A stretch of 64,000 bases of DNA from an uncultured Planctomycetales bacterium (lineage in GTDB: Bacteria > Omnitrophota > Gorgyraeia > Gygaellales > Profunditerraquicolaceae). The stretch lies in contig CAZRVK010000003.1 of the NCBI GenBank assembly GCA_964603585.1, forward strand, positions 3,693 to 67,692. Reading direction: 5' to 3'. A program made the position numbers and the translations under genes. Position 1 is the stretch's first letter. Each line of letters starts with the position of its first letter. The notes under the pieces were generated by a model. That model saw nothing but the letters and a program-made list of their open reading frames with translations. It was not told where the DNA came from and did not search any database. Below are positions 2 through 64,000 of this stretch, one piece after another.

Positions 2-3000
2 GGGAGTATGTTTACTTCAATAGCTCCTGTACTTATCTTAAGAGGAGTGCCAGAAGCCTTAGCCCGAGCCAAGCAAAGAGGTATAACAGTGATCATGGTG
101 TTAAAGCCGGCATATGATCTTGAGACCTCAACCCTTGAAGGAGGGTTCAGAGCCTTAACGCCGGTACTATTAGCCAAGGCATTTGAAAGAAGCATACAGG
201 AGATCACCGGAACAGCATTGAAACTACAGGACTTCTTTACTCATGTATACTTACCCAGATCGCCTAAACAGTATCATCCGCAGGTAGTTAAAGTAAAGGA
301 AAAGAGCAAGACATATAAAGTCAGCGGTAAACAGGGAGAAGTAGACCTGTTTAATGAACAGGGCAAAGCTGCAATAGATGCGATATCAGATACAGTTGCT
401 TATACCGAAGCCGCAGCAGTTATTGCAAAACTGGTCAATGACAATACCAATCTCACGCAAGAAGGCATAGATGCAAAACTCGGGAAGACTTTGAAACTTT
501 CGAAGTTCCTGCCGATGCCGGTGGTCGAGACAACGGAAGAAGAAGCGGCATATTTCGCATCGTTAGGCATTACTCCCAGGATTCTTGACCAGGATAATGA
601 TTTTATGATGTGGACAGGCAAGGTACATTTTAACCCGGACACCTTAACACAACACATCAGAGATGATGCTGCAACTCAGCTGCAGACCAGTGGGGTGAGG
701 AAATCAGAAATTGGTAAAACTAACTGGGGATATATTACTGAGAATATCGGCCAAGGCCAAGCGATAAAAATGGTATTGCTTAATGTTGTTTCTCCTGAAC
801 ATACTGCTAGAGACCAAGGGCCATTCCCTGTAGAGACTTTAATCGCTCATCTTCGTAGAAATATGCGAGATTCTTCTTGTGCTGTGCAAATTTATCTTAT
901 TGATATGCAGAAGATATTGAAGCGTCTGGAATATGAAGATAAAATCCCTGGGCAGGCAAGAAGATTCGAATTATGTTATCAAGAAATGGCAAATCTTATA
1001 GCAGATATAGAGCCTTCCGTTGTTGGTTTATCTATGAAATGGGGGTCGGTGGAACCTGCGACTACAATACTTAATAATGTGAGAGAAAGATTGCAGGCAG
1101 GTAAATATATTATACTCTTAGGAAATACTATACCAACCTTTTGCTATTATGAGCTTCTTGCAAAACCGGAATTCAAGGATGCATTTATGGTGGTAGGGGA
1201 AGGAGAAGTCCCTTCGCAAAATATTATTGAAATAGTCTGTGCAAATCGTGATACATTCGCTTTGGAAGGTCGAAGAGATATTTATAAGAGCATATCCGGT
1301 TTGGCATTTATGGCAAACGGCCAGATGATTGGGCCGCGTAGGGAATGTATGGATTTAGCCAAATTTACAATGCCACAAGGGAATGATATTAAGGATCTGT
1401 TTGAGGGTGGTGCTAGTATCCCTATAGAAGGCAGTAGGGGTTGTGCTTGGGGACATTGTACTTATTGTGCAATCCAAGGATTATTTGGCGACCCTGTCTG
1501 GAGGCCTTATAGTGTGGAAGAACTTTTAGCTAGAATAAGGTATTTTGTCAGCCGGGGGCAAAATAGATTTTATTTTATTGATGCGGAGTTTGTAGGCCCG
1601 GTTAAAACCGAAGAAGAATTTGAATCTTCAATGGAGCGGTTGGAAGAAATAGCAGATGGCCTAGAGGCGATCAATGCGGAGTTGCGGCAGCAGAAAAGAG
1701 AAGAGGTGGTTATTACCAGCATTAATGCCCGCGCAAAGGTGTTTTATAATGAGCGTGCTCCCGAAAGAAGGTCGCGCAGCAAAGCAGTATTTGAGAAACT
1801 TAAGAGAGCTCATTTTATGAAGGTGTTTATAGGCATCGAATCGGGATCTTCGGAGCAATTAAGGCGTTATGGCAAAGGTGCTACTGTCAAAGAAAACGAA
1901 GAAGCAATTAGAATGTTAAGGGATGAGATCGGTTTGGATATGGAGCCTGGTTTTATATTCTTTGACCCCGCTGCAACATTAGAAGAATTATTAGAGAATC
2001 TGGCATTTATAAAAAGAATGAGACTGTATGAACTTGATTCACGACTATTAGGGGCTTTGCGTATTCAAGAGGGTGGATCAGCGGTGCGGCTTTATAAGGA
2101 TTTGATTACAGGGAATAAAGATTTGGAAACTGTAAGTTATCCATATCGATTTAAACATCCTGAGGTAGCATATATTGAAACGGTTTTCTCGATTTGGGAA
2201 AGACAAGCGCGATATTTAGTTAAAAAACTGCATAATTTGGAGCGGGAGCATTTTGATCCTAATGCTAAGGCATTTCTTAAAGGATTTATTACTGAATTAA
2301 GAAGTATCGACTTCGAATTTATTGAAGTTTTGATTAATGCGAAGCTGTCGGGTAATAACACGGAAGACGTAGCTAGGATTTATTTGGCTAAAATGAAAGA
2401 TATCTTCGATAGATTAGGAACTGCTCTTACTGTCAATGTGGCAGGCTTTTCACTAGCTGTGATTAATACGCTAATAGAAGAAGATTTGCCGAAAGCATAT
2501 GCTGAGAACACTGTTTTTATGCAAAATATAAAAGATGTACCCCCGGAAAATGATAAGGCAGCTGAGTTGCAGACCTCCTCCTTACGTAAATCTCGCACCA
2601 CAGAAACCGACGCAGCGTTAACCGAGCTATTAAGCCTGCAGACTAAGATGCAAGAGTATGATGAACTCGCCAGAGCCGAGCAGGAATCTTTATCAGCCGC
2701 GCACGCCGCAATCGAATCGCGTGCATCGCCTGTAACTATTTCCGAAGCCACTTTTGAATATTTCACTGGCTCCGCATCGAATTATCCACAAGCTTTAAAA
2801 GATGAGCTAACTAGTCTTCAGTTCCAGTCAAGAAATCATTGGCATTACCAGTTTTTATTACAGCTTTTTGCTGGCAATCAAGATTTGTTAGATGCAGCTA
2901 TTTGGCAAGAAGCTACTAATACGAACAGGACTTTTGTCCAGGTAGTTTTAGGATGTGTGGGCGTTGGTTCTCTGCCCACTCCCCAGGAATTAGGCGTTAT

Positions 3001-57000: not shown

Positions 57001-60000
57001 GCTTGATTTCTATAGATTCATGCTTATGGATCAACAATCCTTGGAAGGATTATGTTTATTGAGTGATTGCGCAATAGACAGGAGCGTTACGGTCGGATTC
57101 GGAAGGTTGAATCTGACATTCTTCGAGTTAGAAAAGTCAGAAAATATGCGTATCTGCGCGATTTGCCAAGGGAGCAACCTGGTTGGGCACGGGATTTTAA
57201 TATATTTGCCTCTTACGGGGACGGTAGGCTTCAGGTTCCAGATACACGCCGGCTCCACACTTATCTCCGGAAGGAATTTCAGGAATAAAGGATATGGCAC
57301 AGAGGCCTTGGTTGCTCTCATGGCAGCCTGCGTCAATTCGGGGATCTTTGGCAACAAAAGAATAAACAGATTCGAGCGTACCTTGAGTGTCGGAGATGTC
57401 GAGGACGATTTTCACTCTATCGACGGGTTTACGAGTTTCTTGGAATCCAGAGGGTTCACTCCGCAGGGAAAATTTATAATGCAAGGCGGTTATTCCGGGA
57501 GCAAGCCGTGGGTGTTATATAGCACTCAACGCAACACCGAAAACTTCGCATTTTTCTTCCCGGGCTTATTTGTGCTCGTAGTCTGCGCTTGTGTCCTTAG
57601 CTATCGTGAACTTACTGAACGTGATAGGACAGCATACGCCGCTATTAAATCAAAGTTTGCAAACGGCAATACTAACGCAAGTTCAGGGTTTGTTTTTATG
57701 GTGCCGATAATTCCTGTTTCTGGAGGGCTCTTGATCGGGGCATTATTTGTTTTGATGGCAATCAAATTATTCCGCAGCAGCAAGGTGTTCACCAGAGGCG
57801 AATATTCTTATCCGCAGCAGTTTGTACGCAAGGCCCAGTTATTAGATGGCGCCAAACAAGAGATAGAAAATATAACCTTTGCTCCTAACAGCGCCAAAAA
57901 AGTGAGCGGCGGGAATTTTGTCATTGGCGATGATTTCTTGCAGGAAGGAGGACTGCTTGTTTTTCGTATGCCCAATGGACAGAAATTCCTTTTAAGGCGG
58001 TCTCTGCATAAGGCTAATGCGCTTTCTATCGAGACGCTATCTGGTATCTCAAGAATCACACGCTGGCATAAATTACGCGGCAAATTTAAGCATGATACGG
58101 TTTTTAAGACCGGATTCCCCAGATATGAATTATTGTCCGATAGCCAGCAAATTTTTTCCCTTGAACTAAGCGGTAATTTTAAGCTGTATTCGATACCCCT
58201 GCATTTAAAAGACGGGCGGACCATTAAGGTATTCAAGTTCTATAATAATTCAATTCAAGAACAGACAATTTCTTTTTACTCTGCCCAGATAATTAAAACA
58301 ACCGAAACGGCCAAGGCAGGCGCCCAACTTAAGGCACAAGGAGCACCGGCTAAGAAGGTCCGTCCCCAGCAGGTTCCCCGGTATTTCCGCCGAGTCCTAA
58401 TCTCTATAAACCCGATAAGGTGGTTGTATGGGGTTTTCGGCCTGGCACGCACGGTACTTTTCTTCCGCAAGGCAATAGTCCTATTTATTCTGGGGGGATT
58501 AATTTCTGGCTCGGCATACGGAGTTTATCGCTATTGCATTGGTGTGCATGAAAGCGTTCTTGGGGTTGCTCATCCTGTGGACTTAAAACAAGAACATCCG
58601 CAGATCATCTGGAATGATTTTACCGATGAAAAGGTTTTGTCATCGAAAGAAATTTCTTTTGCTGTTGATCAGGCAGTAAAAGCAAGAAGCAAATTGCATG
58701 GCAATATAGTCAGCGTTGTGGTTACTGAAGATGAATCGAATAGAGATCCAAAAAACCACATACACAGGTTTAATGTCATAAAAGATCGGCTTAGTGAGGG
58801 GGTTAAGCGTGATTTAGTGGAAGTGCGCACTTTGTCGCAGGCAGATGTAGAGAGGCTCCAAGATACTATTTTTGAGGGGGACCTTAAATACCGGCAATCA
58901 ATTTTACTATTGATCGCGTATTCATTGCGGGCGATTGCCTGGGCACCCATTGCCGCAAGTTTGATCTTTCTTGTGTGGGCATGGCGGAATTTGCGCGATA
59001 AATACAGAAGCATATCAAGCATGTCGCAGGTTAGAGACTATGCCCGCGAGGGAAAGATATTCGGTGCGGTTATGGAAGATGCTTCTGCTGCGGACAATCT
59101 TATTATGTACGGTGCGCGTAATAGCCCGCTCTCCCGAGAAGTGAGTGGATGGCTGGCGGATAATTTCGATGAAGAAGAAAATAAGACTCGCGCGCAGCAA
59201 AAAAGAGAACGTGAAGCCGAGCGCCGCCAGGGACAAAGGAAGAGAAATAGAGGTAAGGGGGAACTTAACGGCGATGATAATAGCATTAATTTCTCATTAG
59301 GTTCGCCGCTGGCGATAGCAACAACCAGTATCTCCGGTTTGGTTTTAATTACTTTAATCGCATATTTATTAATCGATAGTAGTTCATGTCGCCCGCTGGT
59401 AAGGGAAGAAAAGGCTTCGAAAGACACAAGATGGGGGCTTGATATTGGAAACGGGAAAGATCCTTGTTGCTCAGAGTATGTCCTCGAAAAGGGATTAGCA
59501 GATAAGATGGTTATGGTGAATATGGATACGAAGGAGTACGATTTATCGGATTTAAACAGCCATCCGTGTATACGACACTTAATTGGCAGTCCCTTAAGAC
59601 TCCCTTTTGCCAACGAATCCATGCATCTGGCGATATTCGGTGTCTCGCTTTATTATGCCATTTTGGGAAAATACTCCGGAAAAGACGGCAATAGCGGTGT
59701 TGACTTAACTACTTTGGCAGAGGCGACAGTCGCAGATGTTTTTAAGGAACTCAACAGGGTCCTTTGTTTCGGAGGCGATGTAATTATCAGCATCGGCATA
59801 TTTAAACTGCTGGGTGAATCCAGGTTTATCAATCAAGCGATGATCAAGGAAAATCTCGGAGCATTCGGATTTGATGTAATAGACCAGGGCGTTATTACTG
59901 ACGATGAGCCTTGGACGATTAGGGCAAAAAAGTCAAGGAATGAAGGAGGCGTTTCTATCTCTTCCAGTTCTTCTGTGTTTATGCCGCTGGCAATGACGGG

Positions 60001-63000
60001 CATGAATAATAGTGTTTTCCTTGCGCTCTTGTGCTCTTGTGCGCTTGTACTTTCGGTATTGTGGGCAACCGGAAATCCGCGCAGCTTGTCTGATAAGCTC
60101 TATCAGTATTATTGGGATAAAGGTCTTGATTTGGCCAAACGCTTTGGCCAATTACAGCAGGGAGGGTTACCTAAGCCCCGGGCTTTTATGGCACTGTTGG
60201 AGGAAGCAAGAGAAGAAGATGCCGATTTTAAACTGCTTAACGAGAGTAATTTTCAAGACGTCTTAAGCGGATTAAGAAGTGACGATGTAACTGCCACCGG
60301 TGATTCTTCTGCCTGCTTTTCGGTTGCGCCGCCTGGTTTATCCGGAGCCTCGAGTAATTTTCTTGCCTCAATTGATACAACCGGGCAGCCGGTGATTATT
60401 ATAATCGGCCTATTTTTTCTCGTTCTAATAAGAAGATGGGGTTTTTGTTATATGATTTGGTTAGCCATTTCCAATGTTTTTGCAGTTCTTAAATATTTCG
60501 GAAATACGCCTTCCCGAGTAAGGCTTATAAAGAATGAAATTAGTTCAGCAAAGACTCCAGGAAAAACAGTTTTACCGTATATGACAGGGATTAAGTGCGG
60601 GAATGAGGGGATCTGTAGATATGCATTTTATCATGGGTTAGCGGCGTCTTATCACGGTGGAGTATTTGCAGATATTGGTTCTTCATCCGGATACCAGTTG
60701 GCAGTGGCATTGTTAAGCAGTGGGGCAAGAAAGGTATATAACGTAGATCTTTCTTTCCCGAGAGCCGGGCAGCATACAATTATCGCGGGCCTTGAGAATA
60801 TAAAGGATGATGCTTTCAAGATGTCTTCGTTTGCATCTGGTAGTTGCGATGCTGCAATTATGCATGATTCCTTGATCAGCATTATTGGATTACATCCGGA
60901 TATTTTGGTTGCCGAAGGATTGTTTATTGATCCGGGTTTTTCTGAATTGCAGGTTGCGGCCAATCGCTATAACGATAAATTCGCCAGGTTGATCGAAGAA
61001 ACTATGCGTATAGTAAGAGCAGGAGGCGTGCTTGTGATCTGTCTTTTAAGGGATAATTTTAAAGGTTTAGGAGAAGACTGCGCCGATACCTGGTACGATT
61101 TCTACGTTCATTGGATCACAGCGCAGCTTTTAGAGATGGGATTGGCTTACGAATATATAGAAAAAGAACATTCTTTGTATATAAAAGTAATGAAGTCCAC
61201 GGATGTTTTGTGCACATCTTCTAACGCACCCTTTGCAAATAAACACGGTTCTTTTAATTATTTCGGCTTGGCTTTTGCCGTACCATTCTTAGCTATCAGC
61301 CTTATTCTTATTATTGGGGGGATCGCATTAATCTTTATTCTTGTGATTGAGCTCCGGCAGCTGCGCAGGCTTAAAGTATTATACAAAAACTCATATGATC
61401 AGGCGTTTATTCTGGAAAAAAGATTAGAAGGGTTGCTTTGTATTATAAAAGAGCCCGATGGTGAAAGTTCACAACTCTTGCTTAATTACCGGGAATTTGA
61501 CCTATTACAGGATTGCAGGAATTTCTTGAAGCTTTGGGAAGGGGCAATAGAAGAACTGGAAACGGCTAAGTTCCGGAAAATGTTTTTGTTACGTCCTTTA
61601 CAGAGAGAAGCAATTGCTAATGCCGGTTTGCTGCTTATTGGGCAAATGCGTTATGTTTTTAGCCTGGTCAGGCCGATGAACGAAGAGTTAATGTGTTTGA
61701 TTATCGGTTCAGATTTAAGGCGTCAGATAGATGAGGATAGTTTAGGAGAATTGAGGCGCGTGCAACACGAATTTAACGTTTTATTTTTCTCCGCCAAAAG
61801 GTTAAGAAGAAGGATCAATCGTGTTTTGCATGCATGGAAGATAAAAATAGATCCGCGGGTATCTATAGGAGGATCCCGGCGCCAAGGGCATTCTATTACC
61901 GCGCAATCGATGTTTGAGGCGGCTTGTAATTATCCGATGGTAAAAGTCGAGTTCCAGCGATTAGGGGAGGCGCTTTTGGAATTGGTTCAAAGAGCCCAGA
62001 GGCAAGGGGCGATTACTTTGCGCGGCCCGCCCGCAGAGTTTGTGATCGCCAAGAACGACGGGTTGAATTGGGCTATTTTGCCGGAAGAAATTTATCGTCT
62101 GCTTAACGGGTCTGGGTTGAACGCCCAGGAAATTATTGCGCAGATCGTTTTACATGAGTCATACCCTGATGAAGCCTCGGCCCAAGAGGCACAAGCACGT
62201 CATTTCATGTTAGCCCGCCGCGCAAAAGAAGCAATCCCTCAATTTATTTCAGCATGTTCGGTCACGCGCATCGGTATTGCATTTCGCAGTATGCTGCACG
62301 GCAGAGAGGTTTTAGATGCCTCTCAAGAGATATTGGGAGCAAAGCTTATCCTTATTAATTTACGCCGCCAAAAAACACTTAAAGAGTGCATTCTATTTCA
62401 GGGGATAATAGGTGATTTAGAAGAAATGTATTCCTGGTTCCAGGTATTTGTTGGGAAGGTAAGCAGTGAATCAAAACAGGATAAATTATCCGCAGTTAAT
62501 GCTCTGAATTCCCTCAAACAGCTGGAAGGTTTTGCTGTGAGGTTAAGGGATATACGGGATTCCCTGTGTCAGCTGCAAACTGAAGTTTCTTTTGCCGGAT
62601 CTGCGATCATTGATTGTTTAGGAGATGCCTCTTGTGCGTGCCATCAGGCGGTCATACGGTTAGAGAACCGTATAAGATTTGCCCATGCTGCCCCTATGTT
62701 ATCTTTGGAACCTATAGAAGGGATTGTAAAAGCAGCTTGCCAAAATCAGCCGCAGGTTAAGATAGAAGTTATTCTGGAATCCGGTTGTCTTGTGCTCGCG
62801 GATAGATTGTCTTTGACCAGTGCTATCTTGAATATCGTGAATAATGCGGTTTACTTCAATGATCAGCGTAATGTTCAACCCATGGCGAAAGTCAGAGTAA
62901 AAGTTACCCGTCAAAATGATAGCCTGCGTCTTGAAGTTCTAGATAATGGCCCTGGGATAATGTCTCAAATCATGCCGCATATTGGTTGTTTGAATTTTTC

Positions 63001-64000
63001 TCTTAGGCGGCATGGTTCCGGTTTAGGCCTGGCTGAATTAGTTTGTGTGGCGCATGACCATGGGGGTGAAGTAGAAATAGATTCTTTTACCGCTGAAGAT
63101 GCTAATTCCGATTCAAGAGACTTTTTCATTCCTTTAAGAATGGCGTTGGAGGAAAATCCTCTTTACCACAGCCAGGTAAAGGATGTTTATCTTATTTTGA
63201 AACGCGCATCTTCTGAAATGGAAACAGAACTGGGAGAAATATTGATCAATCCGGTTAACGCTGAAAGCGTAAGAAAATTAATCAAGATGTTTGAACAGTG
63301 TCTATTACCGGCCCGGGATTTAGCGCTTAGCCAGTTACAGGGGGCTGGAGGGTTTACATTACTGGAAAATATTCTCAAACAGGTCATTGACAGTTTGTTT
63401 TCAGCTTTTGAAGAAGCTTTAGGCCAGGATTACAGTGAACCTATCCTGCAGGAGGCGATTACCAGGTATCGTAAGCTTATGGATCATTTCCATAGGCTGG
63501 TTAATTCCAAACGCATGGATATCGGTACAACTGTTACTGTAACCTTGCCGGTTAAGGTAAATTCTCCGGAGCTTCTGGCCGGGGATTTAAGTGCGTTTTG
63601 TGTTCTTCCGGGGGTATTCTCTGGGAATACGGGGTTAGTTTTAATAATACTCTTTGTATTGGGTTTAAGCGGAACGATTTATGCCGTAAGCAGCCGCAAA
63701 GTATGCAATGAAAGCGATTTAGGGATTAGGTTATCGGAGTTACCATCCGCCGCTAAAGAATACCATCAGGGATTTCAATATTTACTTGGGATCTTAGAGG
63801 AAGCAACCGGCCGTTACCAAACCGTCGATGAAGAGTTATCCCAGGCGGATATTACTTACGCAGAAGATCTTTTACGTAAAATGTTCGAGGTTACTAATTT
63901 AACCGGATCCCAGCGCAATGTTTTAGTTCTTTATCTGGCTGGTTTGGATATTGCACAGATAGCCGCAGTATTGAATAGAAGCATTTATGGTGTCCGTCAA
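2..64000 (+). CDS. Fragment of one giant multidomain ORF (at least 21,333 codons, partial at both ends)
   Basis: Phase-2 codons read manually over nt 2-4140 and 23522-64000 with no TAA/TAG/TGA; about 40 further spot checks elsewhere. All recognised domain motifs are in this phase. ORF track shows no + strand ORF above 133 aa and only short antisense ORFs. Confidence 0.85.
8..703 (+). other. N-domain repeat copy A ([25 protein letters not shown]...), ends at LQTSGVRK
   Basis: About 55-60 percent aa identity to copy B at 3991; both preceded by G-S. Confidence 0.6.
680..703 (+). repeat. Junction motif LQTSGVRK (1 of 4)
   Basis: ctg cag acc agt ggg gtg agg aaa in phase 2. Confidence 0.8.
1090..2100 (+). 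other. B12-binding-like N-domain plus radical SAM core (variant Cx4Cx2C)
   Basis: [13 protein letters not shown] at 1442-1468; [19 protein letters not shown] and GFIFFDP downstream; KYIILLGNT...MVVGEGE upstream. Confidence 0.55.
2567..2590 (+). repeat. Junction motif variant LQTSSLRK
   Basis: ttg cag acc tcc tcc tta cgt aaa. Confidence 0.6.
3991..4717 (+). other. N-domain repeat copy B ([25 protein letters not shown]...), ends at LQTSGVRK
   Basis: Homologous to 8-703 along its whole length, including the ETT(D/E)xExxYF...GIxPRILD...WTGKxHF block. Confidence 0.6.
4694..4717 (+). repeat. Junction motif LQTSGVRK (2 of 4)
   Basis: ttg cag act agt ggg gta agg aag. Confidence 0.8.
6060..6560 (+). 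other. HD-superfamily hydrolase domain, RelA/SpoT-like
   Basis: [14 protein letters not shown] ... [18 protein letters not shown] (HDTVED at 6242-6259). Confidence 0.5.
6773..6796 (+). repeat. Junction motif LQTSGVRK (3 of 4)
   Basis: ctt cag act agc gga gtg agg aag. Confidence 0.8.
6830..7990 (+). other. DUF362-like domain
   Basis: [10 protein letters not shown] ... [10 protein letters not shown] ... [21 protein letters not shown] ... [16 protein letters not shown]. Confidence 0.45.
8030..8053 (+). repeat. Junction motif LQTSGIRK (4 of 4)
   Basis: ctt cag acc agt gga att agg aag. Confidence 0.8.
8360..9400 (+). other. PHP-family metal-dependent phosphoesterase domain
   Basis: [37 protein letters not shown] ... 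VAVYAHPGW. Confidence 0.6.
9626..9649 (+). repeat. Junction motif variant LQTSSLRK
   Basis: ctt caa act tca tcg ctt cgc aaa; followed by ...[19 protein letters not shown]. Confidence 0.6.
9746..9763 (+). repeat. Junction motif SLDNGG (1 of 12)
   Basis: agt ctt gat aac ggt gga. Confidence 0.8.
9770..10480 (+). other. Archaemetzincin-like zinc metallopeptidase module
   Basis: [33 protein letters not shown] (HEIGH at 10298-10312; HExxHxxGx..HCx4CxM pattern of peptidase family M54). Confidence 0.5.
10487..10504 (+). repeat. Junction motif SLDNGG (2 of 12)
   Basis: tct ctt gac aat ggc ggc. Confidence 0.8.
10510..12230 (+). other. pgi: Glucose-6-phosphate isomerase (PGI) domain, apparently complete
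   Basis: GIGGSDLGP (10982-11008), DMESNGK (11585-11605), [24 protein letters not shown]. Confidence 0.85.
12251..12268 (+). repeat. Junction motif SIDNGG (3 of 12)
   Basis: tct atc gat aat ggc ggt; preceded by KDNGS. Confidence 0.75.
12290..12960 (+). other. HAD-superfamily hydrolase-like module 1 (motif I lacks second Asp)
   Basis: VIFDWGNVI (12317-12343), [24 protein letters not shown]. Confidence 0.55.
12980..12997 (+). repeat. Junction motif SLDNGG (4 of 12)
   Basis: tct tta gat aac ggt ggt. Confidence 0.8.
13010..14370 (+). other. ROK/glucokinase-type sugar kinase module with C-terminal helical extension
   Basis: YIGISMGG (13043-13063), [27 protein letters not shown]. Confidence 0.6.
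14375..14392 (+). repeat. Junction motif SLDNGG (5 of 12)
   Basis: tct tta gat aat gga gga. Confidence 0.8.
14400..14760 (+). other. Response-regulator receiver (REC) domain
   Basis: [12 protein letters not shown] ... [14 protein letters not shown] (phospho-acceptor Asp near 14558) ... IVLHTK. Confidence 0.7.
14792..14809 (+). repeat. Junction motif SLDNAG (6 of 12)
   Basis: tct ttg gat aat gca gga. Confidence 0.7.
14815..15770 (+). other. Helical N-part plus HAD-like hydrolase module 2 (motif I lacks second Asp)
   Basis: [11 protein letters not shown] (about 15361-15393), [17 protein letters not shown]. Confidence 0.5.
15776..15793 (+). repeat. Junction motif SFDNGG (7 of 12)
   Basis: tct ttt gat aac ggt gga. 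Confidence 0.75.
15800..17040 (+). other. Unassigned module ending in a hydrophobic helix cluster
   Basis: [53 protein letters not shown] at about 16780-16950. Confidence 0.4.
17048..17065 (+). repeat. Junction motif SFDNGG (8 of 12)
   Basis: tca ttc gat aac ggg gga. Confidence 0.75.
17070..17980 (+). other. Polytopic membrane-like module (at least 5 hydrophobic helices)
   Basis: [27 protein letters not shown]; [22 protein letters not shown]; [19 protein letters not shown]; [16 protein letters not shown]. Confidence 0.45.
17984..18001 (+). repeat. Junction motif SLDNGG (9 of 12)
   Basis: tct ttg gat aac gga ggg. Confidence 0.8.
18860..19100 (+). other. CBM48/E-set-like carbohydrate-binding beta-sandwich, copy 1
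   Basis: [65 protein letters not shown] (GxYxYKFxVDGxW pattern). Confidence 0.45.
19127..19144 (+). repeat. Junction motif PLDNGG (10 of 12)
   Basis: cct tta gat aac ggg gga. Confidence 0.75.
19150..20790 (+). other. Phosphoglucomutase/phosphomannomutase domain
   Basis: GTSGIRG (19199-19219), [12 protein letters not shown] (active-site Ser loop), SADGDADRP (metal loop), [15 protein letters not shown] (C-terminal). Confidence 0.8.
20795..20830 (+). repeat. Junction motif [12 protein letters not shown] (11 of 12, doubled)
   Basis: tct ctg gat aat gga ggg gaa ata gat aat ggc gga. Confidence 0.8.
20850..21220 (+). other. CBM48/E-set-like carbohydrate-binding beta-sandwich, copy 2
   Basis: [67 protein letters not shown]. 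Confidence 0.45.
22380..22760 (+). other. Protein-kinase-like module
   Basis: [30 protein letters not shown] (catalytic-loop-like, 22619-22651). Confidence 0.35.
22980..23120 (+). other. Histidine-kinase-like ATPase (HATPase_c-like) segment
   Basis: [21 protein letters not shown] ... [10 protein letters not shown]. Confidence 0.35.
23566..23805 (+). CDS. Candidate 79-aa ORF overlapping the giant ORF in the +1 phase
   Basis: AGGAGG 7 nt upstream of the ATG; upstream stop at 23545; product [45 protein letters not shown]... has ordinary composition, whereas the giant-ORF phase here is Ser/Cys/Leu-rich and low-complexity. Confidence 0.2.
23864..23881 (+). repeat. Junction motif SLDNGG (12 of 12)
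   Basis: tct ttg gat aat gga gga; preceded by [16 protein letters not shown], cf. [15 protein letters not shown] at 9700. Confidence 0.8.
23890..25400 (+). other. Glu/Leu/Phe/Val dehydrogenase-family domain
   Basis: [12 protein letters not shown] (Lys at 24257-24259), [15 protein letters not shown] (dinucleotide-binding), [14 protein letters not shown]. Confidence 0.75.
26500..26720 (+). other. Recurrent RGPP module, copy 1
   Basis: [67 protein letters not shown]. Confidence 0.3.
29186..29253. repeat. Perfect 26-bp inverted repeat with 16-nt loop
   Basis: aataaaggggacgtttctattttcgc (29186-29211) / gcgaaaatagaaacgtcccctttatt (29228-29253); loop agcgcttaagactatg holds an in-frame ATG at 29225-29227. 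Confidence 0.9.
29321..29392 (+). other. Lipoprotein-type signal-peptide-like segment with lipobox, internal to the ORF
   Basis: [24 protein letters not shown] (Cys codon 29384-29386). Confidence 0.4.
30668..30860 (+). other. Sigma-70 region-4 / LuxR-type helix-turn-helix module
   Basis: [62 protein letters not shown]. Confidence 0.5.
32560..33710 (+). other. Phosphate acetyl/butyryltransferase (PTA_PTB)-like module
   Basis: [16 protein letters not shown] ... [58 protein letters not shown]. Confidence 0.6.
33700..34310 (+). other. Acetate/butyrate-kinase-like module, truncated (about 200 aa)
   Basis: [19 protein letters not shown] (cf. the acetate kinase N-terminal loop) and [17 protein letters not shown] ... 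EMLVIARDT (C-terminal part); central region absent. Confidence 0.4.
37380..37660 (+). other. TPR-like repeats
   Basis: [35 protein letters not shown] ... [29 protein letters not shown]. Confidence 0.3.
39960..39985 (+). other. HExxH motif (possible second metallopeptidase-like site)
   Basis: [22 protein letters not shown]. Confidence 0.2.
40440..40900 (+). other. HD-GYP-like HD domain
   Basis: [13 protein letters not shown] (HD at 40571-40576), [28 protein letters not shown]. Confidence 0.55.
41290..41760 (+). other. Degenerate class I methyltransferase-like module
   Basis: [29 protein letters not shown]; [10 protein letters not shown] in place of NPPY. Confidence 0.3.
41990..42290 (+). 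other. CBM48/E-set-like carbohydrate-binding beta-sandwich, copy 3
   Basis: [69 protein letters not shown]. Confidence 0.35.
43480..43800 (+). other. Class I SAM-dependent methyltransferase module
   Basis: [16 protein letters not shown] ... [37 protein letters not shown]. Confidence 0.6.
44460..45250 (+). other. Methylenetetrahydrofolate reductase (MetF)-like module
   Basis: [11 protein letters not shown] (cf. VSFEFFPPRT), [10 protein letters not shown] (cf. AAYPEVHPEA), [12 protein letters not shown] (cf. AGANRAITQFFFD), [11 protein letters not shown]. Confidence 0.4.
46060..46500 (+). other. Class I SAM-dependent methyltransferase module
   Basis: [21 protein letters not shown] ... [12 protein letters not shown]. 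Confidence 0.5.
46660..47100 (+). other. Cluster of 4 hydrophobic helices
   Basis: [23 protein letters not shown]; [20 protein letters not shown]; [22 protein letters not shown]; [19 protein letters not shown]. Confidence 0.5.
47390..47530 (+). other. Cytidine/deoxycytidylate-deaminase-like zinc-binding module
   Basis: [11 protein letters not shown] (HSE 47417-47425) and [10 protein letters not shown] (PCxxC 47501-47515). Confidence 0.5.
48900..48960 (+). other. Second radical SAM-type cysteine triad (Cx3Cx2C)
   Basis: [21 protein letters not shown]. Confidence 0.3.
51950..52430 (+). other. Low-molecular-weight phosphotyrosine phosphatase / ArsC-family module
   Basis: [18 protein letters not shown] (CX5R(S) P-loop at 51977-52000) ... 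[15 protein letters not shown] ... [10 protein letters not shown]. Confidence 0.5.
54330..54560 (+). other. Pol-beta-type nucleotidyltransferase module
   Basis: [24 protein letters not shown] (GS...D.D pattern). Confidence 0.55.
55640..56800 (+). other. PLP-dependent Trp-synthase-beta-fold (PALP) module, threonine dehydratase/cysteine synthase-like
   Basis: [10 protein letters not shown] ... [19 protein letters not shown] (Lys 55784-55786), [29 protein letters not shown]. Confidence 0.65.
57060..57400 (+). other. GNAT-family N-acetyltransferase module
   Basis: [30 protein letters not shown] (motif A R/QxxGxG/A). Confidence 0.45.
59430..59900 (+). other. Weak methyltransferase-like module
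   Basis: [33 protein letters not shown] ... [13 protein letters not shown] ... [16 protein letters not shown]. Confidence 0.3.
60640..61070 (+). other. Class I SAM-dependent methyltransferase module
   Basis: [33 protein letters not shown] ... [13 protein letters not shown]. Confidence 0.5.
62000..62200 (+). other. Recurrent RGPP module, copy 2
   Basis: [56 protein letters not shown]. Confidence 0.3.
62800..63080 (+). other. Histidine-kinase-type ATPase (HATPase_c) module
   Basis: [15 protein letters not shown] (N box), [10 protein letters not shown] (G1, 62942-62959), [11 protein letters not shown] (G2). Confidence 0.6.
63840..64000 (+). other. Sigma-70 region-4 / LuxR-type helix-turn-helix module (cut by window end)
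   Basis: [47 protein letters not shown]. Confidence 0.45.

What the first reader, a model, noticed from the sequence alone, without database searches (positions are those of the whole stretch)
2..64000. The whole 64-kb window is one stop-free reading frame: fragment of a giant gene of more than 21,000 codons
Phase 2 (+ strand) runs from nt 2 to nt 64000 without a stop codon; the gene continues beyond both ends. At about 48 percent GC a random frame should hit a stop roughly every 20-25 codons, so 21,333 stop-free codons cannot be chance. Every minus-strand ORF is under 200 aa, and no + strand ORF in the other phases exceeds 133 aa. Recognisable protein domains occur in the same phase along the whole length, so this is genuine coding sequence, not a non-coding oddity. 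Giant ORFs over 30,000 aa are known from Omnitrophota metagenomes but remain very rare.
Basis: seen in the sequence. Interest (0 to 1): 0.9.

Follow-up and report, generated by a model that had tools for sequence, protein, structure and literature searches.

The report
Omnitrophota giant gene, polyprotein-like junctions
The whole 64-kb window really is one stop-free piece of a giant bacterial gene of a kind already reported from Omnitrophota, but it reads like a virus-style polyprotein: dozens of complete ordinary enzymes joined by short conserved junction motifs, with a built-in protease flanked by one of those motifs.

Summary
The + frame starting at nt 2 has 0 stops in 21,333 codons, while the other five frames have 640-1,714 (chance about 1e-282). 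GC is 44%, not 48%.

The frame encodes at least 25 Pfam families in series, including PGI, PGM, GDH, PTA, HAD, ROK, radical SAM, methyltransferases and a response regulator. The nearest homologues are contig-truncated ORFs from Candidatus Omnitrophota MAGs. It is therefore a new, sequence-unique member of the published Omnitrophota 'multi-enzyme' giant-protein class. That class is not rare in the phylum.

What appears to be new is the junction anatomy. Modules match complete native proteins and are separated by block-specific junctions:
- LQTS[GS]xRK, 6 sites.
- [S/P][L/F/I]DNGG, 12 sites.
- In the last 13,000 aa, single hydrophobic helices of uniform charge polarity.

The two peptide motifs are conserved as peptide while their codons vary, lie in low-pLDDT linkers, and never fall inside a Pfam domain. 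An archaemetzincin-like (M54) protease module is bracketed by DNGG. Its five closest relatives, in other Omnitrophota-type long ORFs, carry the same motif at their own junctions.

The best reading is a self-processing polyprotein (confidence about 0.55). Cleavage itself is not shown.

The parts
2..64000 (+). Stop-free reading frame of 21,333 codons; an internal fragment of a giant gene that is open at both ends of the window
   Evidence: 0 stops, against 640-1,714 in the other frames; Pfam domains along the whole length; no Rfam family, no tRNA and one trivial tandem repeat
2..9649 (+). Block A (aa 1-3216): six modules. They are a CofD/YvcK-like C-terminal part (aa 1-226), B12-binding radical SAM (235-855), a long CofD-like module (864-1564), P-loop plus HD (1573-2257), DUF362 (2266-2676) and PHP (2685-3208). 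Each ends in LQTS[GS][VLI]RK. GC3 is lower here (about 0.36) and AGA codons are enriched
680..703 (+). Junction motif LQTSGVRK (aa 227-234). The other five copies are at nt 2567-2590, 4694-4717, 6773-6796, 8030-8053 and 9626-9649
   Evidence: Ser is AGT/AGC/TCC/TCA and Arg is AGG/CGT/CGC across copies, so conservation is at the peptide level; 1e-4 expected by composition against 6 observed
9650..23881 (+). Block B (aa 3217-7960): a 32-aa mini-module followed by ten modules, each ending in [S/P][L/F/I]DNGG. The modules are M54, PGI, a YihX-like HAD, ROK, response regulator plus HAD, LigT-like, a TM-rich module, an unknown module, PGM and a 1,011-aa unknown module
9746..9763 (+). Junction motif SLDNGG (aa 3249-3254). 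The other copies are at nt 10487-10504, 12251-12268, 12980-12997, 14375-14392, 15776-15793, 17048-17065, 17984-18001, 19127-19144, 20795-20830 (a doubled copy, [12 protein letters not shown]) and 23864-23881
   Evidence: Gly uses all four codons, Leu is CTT/TTA/TTG/CTG, Ser is AGT/TCT/TCA; [LFI]DNGG expected 0.05, observed 12; the unbiased BLOSUM window scan recovers only this motif and the LQTS motif
9764..10486 (+). Archaemetzincin-like (Pfam M54) zinc metallopeptidase module, aa 3255-3495, bracketed by DNGG sites. The catalytic signature is retained (HEIGH at aa 3433, then HCADLRCAM, then CKAC), with a clade-specific insertion of about 11 aa before the third His
   Evidence: Pfam 52.9 bits against a cut-off of 24.4; motifs; AF2 core pLDDT 88-98; the top five Foldseek PDB matches are all archaemetzincins, probability 1.00
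10505..12250 (+). Complete glucose-6-phosphate isomerase module (aa 3502-4083)
   Evidence: Pfam PGI 796 bits, model positions 1-486 of 486. Module residues 10-575 align with residues 3-546 of the 549-aa E. coli PGI 3nbu. The AF2 model has mean pLDDT 87.6, and its only segments below 50 are the two junction-bearing flanks
12269..20794 (+). Further block B modules. These are a YihX-like HAD phosphatase (nt 12269-12979), ROK kinase (12998-14374), response regulator plus HAD (14393-15775), 2',5'-RNA-ligase-like (15794-17047), a TM-rich module (17066-17983), an unknown module (18002-19126) and phosphoglucomutase/phosphomannomutase (19145-20794)
   Evidence: The HAD module aligns over residues 17-212 with residues 3-183 of the 202-aa YihX. 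The PGM module aligns over residues 16-429 with residues 10-399 of the 481-aa 4hjh
23882..64000 (+). Block C (aa 7961-21333): neither peptide motif occurs here. The modules include GDH (nt 23882-25411), a phosphorylase-like part (27860-28195), sigma-70 region 4 (30698-30844), PTA (32888-33676), an acetate-kinase-like part (34028-34216), HD (40469-40834), methyltransferases (41333-41686 and 43499-43792), dCMP deaminase (47321-47560), a PLP enzyme (55688-56713), HATPase_c (62801-63085) and sigma-70 r4_2 (63899-63994). Many stretches have no Pfam hit
30149..30238 (+). Example of a block C junction (aa 10050-10079): an uncharged stretch with the hydrophobic-Pro motif 'LCLPLA', a hydrophobic helix of about 19 aa, then a K/R cluster. 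The cores of the 23 isolated helices start at aa 7819, 9669, 10061, 11456, 11824, 12337, 13127, 13688, 14213, 14401, 14772, 16116, 16597, 17515, 17832, 18053, 18506, 18943, 19773, 20005, 20131, 20431 and 21211. In nucleotides these run from 23456-23512 to 63632-63688
   Evidence: Net charge is more positive after the helix in 19 cases, before it in 2, with 2 ties (sign test p = 2e-4). Pro lies within 12 aa upstream in 20 of 23 (42% expected). A hydrophobic-hydrophobic-(x)-Pro-hydrophobic motif lies upstream in 11 of 23, against 8.3% of control windows

Best explanation
The window is an internal 21,333-codon fragment of an Omnitrophota-type 'multi-enzyme' giant gene (this part about 0.95 confident). 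It is built as a string of more than 35 protein-sized modules. Where this could be tested, each module corresponds end to end to a complete native enzyme or regulator. The modules are joined by short linkers of three kinds, in three consecutive blocks.

The most likely mode of action is that of a polyprotein. The chain is cut at the junctions into individual proteins, which can then fold, oligomerise and work as ordinary enzymes of glucose-phosphate/glycogen metabolism, acetate formation, amino-acid metabolism and signalling.

- In block B the recognition element is [S/P][L/F/I]DNGG. The candidate protease is the archaemetzincin-like M54 module embedded in the same block and flanked by that motif on both sides, as viral polyprotein proteases are.
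- In block A a different, unidentified protease would recognise LQTS[GS]xRK.
- In block C the junction is an uncharged Pro-containing stretch, then a hydrophobic helix, then a K/R cluster, always in the same orientation. Cutting before each helix would yield enzymes facing the cytoplasm and anchored in the membrane by an N-terminal helix.

Shown: the ORF, the modules, the motifs, their peptide-level conservation, their position in flexible linkers, and the co-occurrence of M54 with DNGG. Inferred: that cleavage happens, which bond is cut, which protease cuts it, and the membrane topology.
For: (1) Modules match whole native chains. The PGI module aligns over residues 10-575 with residues 3-546 of a 549-aa solved PGI. 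The HAD module aligns over 17-212 with 3-183 of a 202-aa chain. The PGM module aligns over 16-429 with 10-399 of a 481-aa chain. The response-regulator domain starts 7 aa after a junction.

(2) The motifs are far beyond chance: 12 observed against 0.05 expected, and 6 against 1e-4. They are the only recurring short motifs in 21,333 aa.

(3) Codons inside the motifs vary freely at synonymous sites, including Ser AGY/TCN and Arg AGG/CGN, while the residues stay fixed. Selection therefore acts on the peptide, not on DNA or RNA.

(4) None of the 17 junctions (18 motif copies) lies inside a Pfam envelope, although envelopes cover 33% of blocks A and B (p about 0.001). In two AF2 models the only segments with pLDDT below 50 are those carrying the motifs, directly abutting confident folds.

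(5) The M54 module is an intact archaemetzincin by sequence and by fold.

(6) The five closest M54 relatives out of 1.84 billion representatives (P0122, P0123, P0124/L004, P0125/L005, P0127; 39-54% identity) sit in other long ORFs. Three of these carry an Omnitrophota label. All five carry xDNGG at fixed distances on both sides of M54, and three of them (P0123, P0127, P0125/L005) also at other module boundaries. There are 10 sites in 6,477 aa against about 0.09 expected, plus five more 'GSVDNGG' sites in L005. None occurs in 121 control proteins totalling 123,061 aa.

(7) Other Omnitrophota multi-enzyme ORFs have their own private junction motif at the same position relative to PGI: RSELR, R[AS]EVR, ASSPV and PRTNGS. 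This is the pattern expected when sites co-evolve with a lineage-specific recognition factor.

(8) 19 of 21 informative isolated helices have the same charge polarity. A single uncleaved chain with alternating topology could not satisfy that.

(9) From established knowledge: PGI works as a dimer and GDH as a hexamer. The SAM-, ATP-, CoA-, NAD(P)- and PLP-dependent modules need the cytoplasm. One archaemetzincin shows Zn-dependent self-cleavage, and the natural substrates of the family are unknown.
Against: - There is no direct evidence of cleavage. These tools give no proteomic or N-terminal data, and the published re-analysis of V. archaeovorus proteomics was inconclusive.
- The M54-DNGG link rests on six related sequences. 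It could reflect co-inheritance of a block rather than an enzyme-substrate relationship.
- More distant M54-bearing giant ORFs (P0131, P0183/L003, P0126) show no clear recurring motif.
- Metzincins usually read the primed side, with a hydrophobic P1' residue, so the scissile bond is uncertain: before the L/F/I, or after GG.
- No protease was found for the LQTS motif or for block C. No relative shares LQTS.
- The helix polarity was derived from a simple hydropathy and charge count, not from a trained topology predictor. It could not be replicated significantly in relatives (7 against 1, p = 0.07).
- The 2026 survey reads such proteins as intact membrane-anchored chains.
Confidence: 0.55

Rival explanations
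1. Uncleaved megaprotein. The chain stays intact as a membrane-tethered 'beads on a string' array of enzymes, a metabolon or surface coat. On this reading the junction motifs are only linker, hinge or docking elements, and the hydrophobic helices thread the chain back and forth through the membrane.
For: [quoted passage not shown] Peptides from a V. archaeovorus giant ORF were detected and rose in attached cells. No cleavage has ever been demonstrated. Block C has 34 strong hydrophobic cores.
Against: A plain flexible linker does not need an invariant 6-8-residue motif kept under peptide-level selection. The same motif brackets a protease module in six independent ORFs. The uniform charge polarity of isolated helices (19 against 2) conflicts with alternating topology. 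Alternating topology would also put about half of the ATP-, SAM-, CoA-, NAD(P)- and PLP-dependent modules outside the cell. Obligate oligomers (PGI dimer, GDH hexamer) are hard to assemble inside a chain of more than 21,000 aa (established knowledge).
Confidence: 0.3
2. The motifs are scars of how the gene was assembled. Modules or blocks were inserted by recombination at a short DNA joint, and the translated joint merely persists. On this reading the motifs have no role in the protein.
For: The switch from LQTS to DNGG lies within about 200 aa of the strongest GC3 change point (aa about 3440; GC3 0.355 against 0.438; LLR 41 against a null maximum of 12). Arg codon usage differs between the blocks. 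The two borders of block B share an extended repeat of about 20 aa. Homologous modules occur in a different order in relatives.
Against: Synonymous positions in the motifs are essentially randomised while all amino acids are retained, which requires continuing selection on the peptide. The DNA core shared by copies is only about 8 of 12 bases. Block-wise acquisition is compatible with, and does not replace, a protein-level function.
Confidence: 0.07
3. Separation at the level of translation. The modules are made as separate proteins by internal initiation, by 2A-like peptide-bond skipping, or by termination/readthrough at the junctions.
For: In two relatives a single in-frame stop interrupts an otherwise continuous long frame. 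In L004 the stop lies two codons before PADNGG.
Against: The window itself has no stop. There is no NPGP motif, no consistent in-frame ATG after junctions, and no conserved Shine-Dalgarno-like DNA in the motifs. No Rfam element is present.
Confidence: 0.04
4. Artefact: an assembly chimera of several loci, or a sequence that is never expressed.
For: There is a compositional step near nt 10,300. The source contig and its reads are not available, since exact-match scans found nothing.
Against: A chimera would not keep one frame open over 64 kb. Codon usage correlates at r = 0.87-0.94 between all eighths of the ORF. There is no long repeat that could mislead an assembler. Intact catalytic motifs and scores of nearly 800 bits for PGI indicate purifying selection. 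ORFs of this kind recur in complete long-read genomes.
Confidence: 0.04

Closest known systems
Omnitrophota giant proteins: the 'multi-enzyme metabolic cluster' class (Nielsen & Lui 2026, bioRxiv 10.64898/2026.06.07.730766) and the Archaeovorin-type proteins (West-Roberts et al. 2023, bioRxiv 10.1101/2023.11.21.568195)
   Same: A continuous ORF of tens of kilobases. Many different Pfam families with none dominating. The same repertoire: methyltransferase PF08241, HATPase_c, HAD, HD, PGM, response regulator, radical SAM, ROK and PGI. Hydrophobic helices every few hundred residues. Nearest homologues labelled Omnitrophota. Sequence-unique, with hardly any collinear relatives.
   Different: The papers report no junction motifs. 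The 2023 preprint says cleavage points are unknown and proposes the N-terminal C39 or S8 peptidases, while the 2026 preprint does not discuss cleavage at all. Here, block-specific junction motifs and an embedded M54 peptidase are described. The N-terminal C39 and SecA regions lie outside this window.
Viral polyproteins with embedded proteases (picornavirus 3C, coronavirus PLpro/Mpro, potyvirus NIa)
   Same: One ORF encodes many mature proteins. A short conserved motif sits at each junction. The protease module is flanked by its own motif. Different motif sets serve different parts of the chain, as in coronaviruses. Motifs differ between lineages.
   Different: This is a cellular gene that encodes housekeeping metabolism, not a replicase or capsid. 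The candidate protease is a zinc metzincin rather than a Cys or Ser protease. It is at least 3-10 times longer than any viral polyprotein. Cleavage is not demonstrated.
Archaemetzincins (MEROPS/Pfam M54; AmzA, AMZ1/2, AMZ-tk)
   Same: HExxH, then HCx4CxM, then a CxxC zinc-knuckle signature. The fold matches 2x7m, 3zvs, 4axq and 3lmc. AMZ-tk self-cleaves.
   Different: Known members are free-standing proteins of about 160-200 aa whose natural substrates are unknown. This clade is embedded in long ORFs, has an N-terminal extension of about 60 aa, and has an insertion of about 11 aa between the Gly and the third His of the zinc motif.
Double-glycine leader processing by C39 peptidases (bacteriocin and ABC-transporter maturation)
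   Same: The block B motif ends in Gly-Gly. C39 domains are reported near the N-termini of Omnitrophota giant proteins.
   Different: No C39 domain occurs in the window. The position four residues before the cut is Asp rather than the hydrophobic residue of canonical leaders. The sites are internal and repeated rather than one N-terminal leader.
C-terminal sorting signals (LPXTG/sortase, PEP-CTERM/exosortase, PGF-CTERM/archaeosortase)
   Same: Block C junctions have the same three-part layout: a short Pro-containing motif, a hydrophobic helix and a basic cluster.
   Different: They are internal and repeated about 20 times rather than at the C-terminus. They match no curated NCBIfam sorting-signal model. 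No sortase-like enzyme was seen.
Multifunctional fusion enzymes and megasynthases (AROM, CAD, FAS, PKS/NRPS)
   Same: Several catalytic units lie on one chain.
   Different: There are no carrier, condensation or ketosynthase domains and no repeated module logic. The units here are unrelated whole proteins from different pathways, including regulators and sigma-factor-like domains.

Membership tests
Omnitrophota multi-enzyme giant protein (class 1 of Nielsen & Lui 2026) | Single continuous ORF of at least 10,000 aa | tested here: met
   At least 21,333 codons without a stop, open at both ends
Omnitrophota multi-enzyme giant protein (class 1 of Nielsen & Lui 2026) | Many distinct Pfam families tile the chain and none dominates by copy number; content matches their co-occurrence modules 1 and 2 | tested here: met
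   At least 25 families, none present more than about 3 times. They include PF08241, PF02518, PF13419, PF01966, PF02878-80, PF00072, PF04055 and PF00480 (against the list)
Omnitrophota multi-enzyme giant protein (class 1 of Nielsen & Lui 2026) | TM helices scattered at roughly one per few hundred residues | tested here: met
   34 cores with 19-residue hydropathy of 2.0 or more, and 54 at 1.7 or more, in 21,333 aa. This is a hydropathy scan only, not DeepTMHMM
Omnitrophota multi-enzyme giant protein (class 1 of Nielsen & Lui 2026) | Encoded in an Omnitrophota genome | tested here: inconclusive
   The window holds no marker gene, and the source contig was not found. All informative homologues are labelled Candidatus Omnitrophota, Omnitrophica or Ca. 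Gygaella, except one 4.8-kb contig binned elsewhere
Omnitrophota multi-enzyme giant protein (class 1 of Nielsen & Lui 2026) | N-terminal region with a signal peptide or C39 peptidase; SecA-DEAD-like domain (West-Roberts 2023) | not testable with these tools
   The N-terminus lies outside the window. No C39 or SecA Pfam hit occurs inside it
Self-processing polyprotein (viral type) | One ORF encoding several complete proteins in series | tested here: met
   Modules align end to end with solved full-length PGI, YihX and PMM chains
Self-processing polyprotein (viral type) | A conserved short motif at the junctions, located in exposed linkers | tested here: met
   Met for blocks A and B. Block C has a different, helix-based junction
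Self-processing polyprotein (viral type) | An embedded protease flanked by its own sites; protease and site co-occur across relatives | tested here: met
   The M54 module is bracketed by DNGG in the window and in P0122, P0125/L005, P0127 and P0124/L004; the N-terminally truncated P0123 shows only the downstream site. Controls lack DNGG. The sample is small, at six ORFs
Self-processing polyprotein (viral type) | Demonstrated proteolytic release of the mature proteins | not testable with these tools
   This needs proteomics or biochemistry. The published re-analysis was inconclusive
Archaemetzincin (Pfam PF07998, MEROPS M54) | Pfam score above the gathering threshold, and a metzincin fold closest to AmzA | tested here: met
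   52.9 bits against a cut-off of 24.4. The top five Foldseek matches are AmzA structures, probability 1.00, TM-score 0.64-0.84 normalised by target. A profile search hits 2x7m at E = 4e-52
Archaemetzincin (Pfam PF07998, MEROPS M54) | Extended consensus HEXXHXXGXXHCX4CXMX17CXXC | tested here: inconclusive
   [18 protein letters not shown] and CKAC are present. However, about 11 residues are inserted between the Gly and the third His, and the spacer before CxxC is 16 residues rather than 17
C39 / double-glycine leader system | GG immediately before the cut, hydrophobic residues 4, 7 and 12 positions before the cut, and a cognate C39 domain | tested here: not met
   GG is present, but the residue four positions before the cut is Asp at all 12 sites. 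No PF03412 hit occurs in the window. A C39 domain upstream of the window cannot be excluded
Sortase/exosortase-type C-terminal sorting signal | Match to a curated sorting-signal model, and location at the extreme C-terminus | tested here: not met
   Ten junction segments gave no NCBIfam sorting-signal hit at E up to 10. The elements are internal
PKS/NRPS-type megasynthase | Carrier-protein, condensation/ketosynthase and adenylation/acyltransferase domains in repeated modules | tested here: not met
   None of these Pfam families was detected

The most novel reading that the evidence does not exclude
A free-living or episymbiotic bacterium encodes a sizeable share of its central metabolism and signalling as a virus-style, self-processing polyprotein. 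Block-specific cleavage motifs (LQTS[GS]xRK, [L/F/I]DNGG, and helix-type junctions) mark the cut sites. An embedded archaemetzincin-like protease cuts at the DNGG junctions. That would also give the first natural substrate and recognition sequence for any archaemetzincin. Giant genes would then grow by in-frame acquisition and shuffling of multi-module blocks, each bringing its own motif and protease.
Probability: 0.4. Interest if true: 0.85.

Novelty: new member of a known kind. Interest (0 to 1): 0.62.

Why it matters
Giant Omnitrophota ORFs are an acknowledged puzzle. The literature asks explicitly whether they act as one chain or are cut into pieces, and says that the lack of known cleavage points blocks structural and functional analysis.

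This window supplies concrete, testable candidate cut sites at 17 peptide-motif junctions and about 20 helix-type junctions. It also supplies a candidate protease, and a simple rule for finding each lineage's private junction motif in other giant genes.

If the sites are real, four things follow:
- Giant ORFs can be split computationally into ordinary proteins for annotation. That could change metabolic reconstructions, for example PGI being scored as absent in many genomes.
- Archaemetzincins would gain a natural substrate.
- Polyprotein expression, which gives fixed stoichiometry from one transcript, would extend from viruses to cellular core metabolism.

If the sites are not cleaved, the motifs still define the module grammar of these proteins.

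Tried and rejected
- **Source contig.** An exact 42-mer from the window start found nothing in the genome or metagenome collections.
- **Relatives of block A.** The CofD-like paralogue alignment found no locus in the genome collection. A 1,600-aa block A query found one remote homologue among 5.8 billion proteins, and that homologue has no LQTS-like motif.
- **M54 by word-based search.** No hit; the full HMMER search was needed.
- **Metagenome scan with the M54 alignment.** It gave a single locus, L003. This is a Gygaella-like giant ORF with a distant M54 and no clear junction motif.
- **A third peptide motif in block C.** Exact, reduced-alphabet and BLOSUM scans found none.
- **Block C junctions as known sorting signals.** No NCBIfam match.
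- **RNA or translation-level separators.** No conserved Shine-Dalgarno-like DNA, no regular in-frame ATG, no NPGP, no Rfam family and no tRNA.
- **A C39 or other second protease in the window.** Pfam found none, even per module at E up to 0.05.
- **P0124 as a free-standing M54 with a propeptide ending in LDNGG.** Rejected. Its frame is open for 1,504 codons upstream and the called start is an internal GTG.
- **Helix polarity in relatives.** The fetched fragments hold too few isolated helices (7 against 1, p = 0.07).
- **Spontaneous Asn-Gly chemistry at DNGG.** Considered as an alternative to enzymatic cleavage. It is not excluded, but it does not explain the association with M54 or the conserved L/F/I-D positions.


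Full report
**1. Observation**

The + frame that begins at nt 2 contains no TAA, TAG or TGA in 21,333 codons. The other five frames contain 640-1,714 stops, and their longest open stretch is 203 codons. At the stop density of the least stop-dense alternative frame, the chance of this is about 1e-282.

GC is 44.0%, not about 48%. Codon-position composition (GC1/2/3 = 0.515/0.382/0.425) and amino-acid composition are those of real protein. The window holds no Rfam family, no tRNA and only one trivial tandem repeat. The ORF runs off both ends of the window.

**2. What is encoded**

Pfam finds at least 25 different families in this one frame, from the first to the last residues.
- Metabolic enzymes: CofD/YvcK-like (twice), B12-binding radical SAM, DUF362, PHP, PGI (796 bits over the full model), a YihX-like HAD phosphatase, ROK kinase, PGM/PMM, Glu/Leu/Phe/Val dehydrogenase, PTA, dCMP deaminase and a PLP enzyme. 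Partial matches are a phosphorylase-like part and an acetate-kinase-like part.
- Regulatory and other domains: HD (twice), response regulator plus HAD, a LigT-like domain, several SAM methyltransferases, HATPase_c and sigma-70 region 4 (twice).
- One protease: an M54 metallopeptidase.

About half of the chain has no Pfam hit. Internal paralogy is minimal, so this is not a repeat protein.

**3. Where it belongs**

The closest homologues of the PGI module that are themselves multi-domain proteins are labelled Candidatus Omnitrophica. The only homologue of a 1,600-aa block A query is labelled the same way. Three of the five closest relatives of the M54 module are contig-truncated ORFs labelled Candidatus Omnitrophota. 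The other two are unlabelled (P0124/L004, P0125/L005), and one of the labelled three sits on a 4.8-kb contig binned elsewhere. More distant M54-bearing ORFs include one from Ca. Gygaella obscura.

The source contig itself was not found.

The domain repertoire matches the 'multi-enzyme metabolic cluster' class of Omnitrophota long proteins (Nielsen & Lui 2026). It also matches the glycolytic-enzyme content noted in 'Archaeovorin-type' giant proteins (West-Roberts et al. 2023). In those surveys such ORFs reach 85,804 and 147,155 aa and are common in the phylum.

As a giant ORF the finding is therefore real but of a known kind. The window is a new, sequence-unique member.

**4. Junction anatomy (not found in the held literature)**

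An unbiased BLOSUM window-against-window scan of all 21,333 residues recovers exactly two recurring short motifs.
- LQTS[GS][VLI]RK occurs 6 times, only in aa 1-3216 (block A).
- [S/P][L/F/I]DNGG occurs 12 times at 11 junctions, only in aa 3249-7960 (block B).
- By composition, 1e-4 and 0.05 occurrences are expected.

The stretches between motifs are 237-1,011 aa long, plus one of 32 aa.

Inside the motifs the amino acids are invariant but the codons are not. Ser switches between AGY and TCN, Arg between AGG and CGN, Leu among four codons, and Gly uses all four. Conservation is therefore at the peptide level and is old.

None of the 17 junctions falls inside a Pfam envelope, although envelopes cover 33% of blocks A and B (p about 0.001).

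Junction-to-junction modules correspond to complete native chains.
- The 588-aa PGI module aligns over residues 10-575 with residues 3-546 of the 549-aa E. coli enzyme.
- The HAD module aligns over 17-212 with 3-183 of the 202-aa YihX.
- The PGM module aligns over 16-429 with 10-399 of a 481-aa PMM.
- The receiver domain starts 7 residues after a junction.

An AlphaFold2 model of junction-PGI-junction has mean pLDDT 87.6. Its only segments below 50 are local residues 1-23, which contain SLDNGG, and 605-631, which begin with SIDNGG directly after the last PGI helix. The M54 module behaves the same way.

**5. Block C**

After aa 7960 neither motif occurs, and no third peptide motif was found. 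Instead, modules are separated by single strong hydrophobic helices. Each is typically preceded by an uncharged Ser/Asn/Gly-rich stretch containing a hydrophobic-hydrophobic-(x)-Pro-hydrophobic element (LCLPLA, CFMPLA, AFLPLA, VFMPLA, LGSPLA and others). Each is followed by a K/R cluster.

Among 23 isolated helices:
- net charge is more positive after the helix in 19, before it in 2, with 2 ties (sign test p = 2e-4);
- Pro lies within 12 residues upstream in 20 of 23 (42% expected);
- the Pro motif is present in 11 of 23, against 8.3% of control windows.

The layout resembles C-terminal sorting signals, but no curated sorting-signal model matches.

In one uncleaved chain, consecutive membrane helices must alternate in orientation. 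A uniform N-out/C-in charge signature therefore argues that these units are not all threaded as parts of one intact polytopic chain. This rests on a simple hydropathy and charge analysis. The fetched fragments of relatives hold too few helices to replicate it (7 against 1, p = 0.07).

**6. Relatives: private motifs, and the link between M54 and DNGG**

Other Omnitrophota multi-enzyme ORFs recovered through their PGI module each carry their own recurring short motif: RSELR in P0034, R[AS]E[VA]R in P0015, and ASSPV in P0117. By eye, P0003 has RSE[TVM]R and P0067 and P0074 have D.AM. In each case the motif lies a few residues upstream of the conserved PGI N-terminus. The same unbiased scan over all 120 PGI hits flags only those Omnitrophota proteins, plus one tandem-repeat artefact. 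Shuffled sequences give at most 2.

The only protease-like module in the window is an archaemetzincin-like M54 domain (aa 3255-3495). It keeps [14 protein letters not shown] and CKAC and has an AmzA-like predicted fold. SLDNGG sits on both sides of it.

A full HMMER search of 1.84 billion representatives gave 368 relatives. The closest ones (E of 1e-35 or better, 39-54% identity) are P0122, P0123, P0125, P0127 and P0124. All lie in long ORFs with different neighbouring enzymes.
- All five carry xDNGG about 65 aa after HExGH. Those not truncated at the N-terminus also carry it about 165-180 aa before.
- Three of them (P0123, P0127, P0125/L005) carry it at other module boundaries too. For example, 'KSLDNGG' lies 8 residues before the start of a HAD domain.
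- That makes 10 sites in 6,477 aa against about 0.09 expected.
- The ORF that continues P0125 in locus L005 adds five 'GSVDNGG' sites, all between Pfam domains.
- Controls: no DNGG in 121 proteins totalling 123,061 aa. None of the 138 short archaemetzincin-like hits other than P0124 has it.

More distant M54-bearing giant ORFs use another motif (P0130: PRTNGS, four copies) or show none that I could detect (P0126, P0131, P0183/L003).

One correction to my own earlier reading: P0124 is not free-standing. Its frame is open for 1,504 codons upstream.

**7. Mechanism**

The most economical reading is a polyprotein. The chain is cut at the junctions by site-specific proteases. In block B the embedded M54 enzyme is the candidate. 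It is flanked by its own motif, as viral polyprotein proteases are, and protease clade and motif travel together across otherwise different ORFs.

Several lines of outside knowledge fit this.
- PGI works as a dimer and GDH as a hexamer.
- Most modules need cytoplasmic cofactors.
- Archaemetzincins have no known natural substrate, and some are inactive on standard substrates, which suggests stringent specificity. One member self-cleaves.

For block C, cutting before each helix would give N-terminally anchored enzymes facing the cytoplasm. This would reconcile the uniform helix polarity with the cytoplasmic nature of the domains.

All of this is inference. No tool here can show a cut. The scissile bond is unknown: metzincins usually prefer a hydrophobic P1' residue, which would place the cut before the L/F/I rather than after GG. 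The M54-DNGG association rests on six related ORFs and could reflect shared descent. I put the polyprotein mechanism at about 0.55 and M54 as the DNGG protease at about 0.4. The main rival, at about 0.3, is an intact membrane-tethered megaprotein in which the motifs are docking or hinge elements.

**8. Evolutionary hints**

The strongest GC3 change point (aa about 3440; GC3 0.355 against 0.438; LLR 41 against a null maximum of 12) lies within about 200 aa of the switch from LQTS to DNGG junctions. Block A also prefers AGA for Arg (0.40 against 0.20). The two borders of block B share an extended repeat of about 20 aa. Homologous modules (M54, B12-radical SAM) occur in a different order in P0122.

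Together these suggest that giant genes grow by in-frame acquisition and shuffling of multi-module blocks, each with its own junction grammar. An assembly chimera at that point cannot be excluded without reads. It is unlikely, given the unbroken frame, broadly uniform codon usage (r = 0.87-0.94 between eighths) and the absence of long repeats.

**9. Verdict**

The object is a new member of a known kind.

The added value is a set of concrete candidate cleavage sites and a candidate protease. These make the open question in this field, one chain or many products, directly testable. They also offer a route to annotating these ORFs as ordinary proteins.

Noticed in passing
window nt ~9,600-10,500 (aa 3216-3500): GC3 steps from about 0.355 to about 0.438. 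The best change point is at aa ~3440 (LLR 41 against a null maximum of 12), and Arg codon preference shifts as well (AGA 0.40 to 0.20). The step lies close to the switch from LQTS-type to DNGG-type junctions. By composition the M54 module groups with block A, although DNGG flanks it.
   Followed up: partly
window nt 9,698-9,763 and 23,810-23,881 (aa 3233-3254 and 7937-7960): The first and last DNGG junctions of block B share a longer similar stretch, '..F[I/L]xPEKKT[L/I]..SLDNGG', with about 75% DNA identity over about 60 nt. The 32-aa 'mini-module' between the last LQTS site and the first DNGG site looks like the tail of a module related to the last block B module. This may be a recombination footprint.
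   Followed up: partly
window aa 1-234 vs 1329-1572; 6257-6366 vs 6952-7062; 12125-12240 vs 20629-20739; 4185-4336 vs 5124-5268: These are the only internal paralogous segments in 21,333 aa. The two CofD-like module ends are 59% identical, including the LQTSGVRK junction. The other pairs are 28-36% identical.
   Followed up: partly
L004 nt 4,470-4,540 (GCA_964494745.1 contig CAZBSU010000120.1): A 2,108-codon frame spans the whole contig with a single in-frame TAG. That stop lies right after the M54 module and two codons before an in-frame 'PADNGG'. It could be a real gene boundary placed exactly at a junction, a readthrough site or a sequencing error. The gene caller's 'standalone' M54 protein (P0124) starts at an internal GTG.
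   Followed up: partly
L006 nt 9,950-9,952 (GCA_041653115.1 contig JBAZGA010000023.1): Two long open stretches (3,316 and 2,963 codons) lie in the same frame, separated by a single TAA. No junction motif is nearby. The downstream ORF (P0130) uses 'PRTNGS' as its recurring motif (four clear copies) and contains a divergent M54.
   Followed up: no
L005 nt 3,290-3,420 (JGI Ga0598272_0003294): P0125 (PGM-M54-PGI-like) and the following ORF of 3,376 or more aa overlap in different frames. This is probably one giant ORF split by a frameshift. The downstream part carries PRK, ribulose-phosphate 3-epimerase, RmlD-type reductase, HATPase_c, HAD and PPDK domains, separated by 'GSVDNGG'.
   Followed up: partly
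P0015, P0034, P0003, P0117, P0102, P0067, P0074: Each of these Omnitrophota multi-enzyme proteins has its own short recurring junction motif: R[AS]EVR, RSELR, RSE[TVM]R, ASSPV and D.AM. P0067, P0074, P0102 and P0117 also share a conserved N-terminal domain and a C-terminal 'GGIDLN...' domain, so they form a separate family of complete proteins of about 2,000 aa built on the same principle.
   Followed up: partly
window nt 30,698-30,844 and 63,899-63,994: Sigma-70 region 4-like helix-turn-helix segments are embedded in the giant ORF, along with a response-regulator receiver and an HATPase_c domain. DNA-binding and regulatory modules therefore appear to be part of the same chain as metabolic enzymes.
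   Followed up: no
window nt 10,505-20,794, 27,860-28,195 and 32,888-34,216: There is functional clustering. PGI, a glucose-1-phosphate-phosphatase-like HAD, a ROK sugar kinase, PGM and a glycogen-phosphorylase-like segment lie together (glucose-phosphate and glycogen metabolism). PTA is followed by an acetate-kinase-like segment. The phosphorylase and acetate-kinase matches cover only part of their Pfam models and may be degenerate.
   Followed up: no
window aa 3433-3465 (nt ~10,298-10,396) and relatives P0122-P0129, P0131: The Omnitrophota-type M54 clade has a conserved insertion of about 11 residues (GLGTSRA[RQ]LS..) between the Gly and the third zinc-binding His of the archaemetzincin motif. 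It is absent from archaeal AmzA and from P0153 and P0162. It sits next to the active site and may set specificity.
   Followed up: partly
P0127 (MDD3150655.1): This ROK-M54-starch-synthase-like ORF has three DNGG junctions but is labelled Candidatus Gastranaerophilales. It sits on a 4.8-kb contig and looks like a binning error for an Omnitrophota-type sequence.
   Followed up: no
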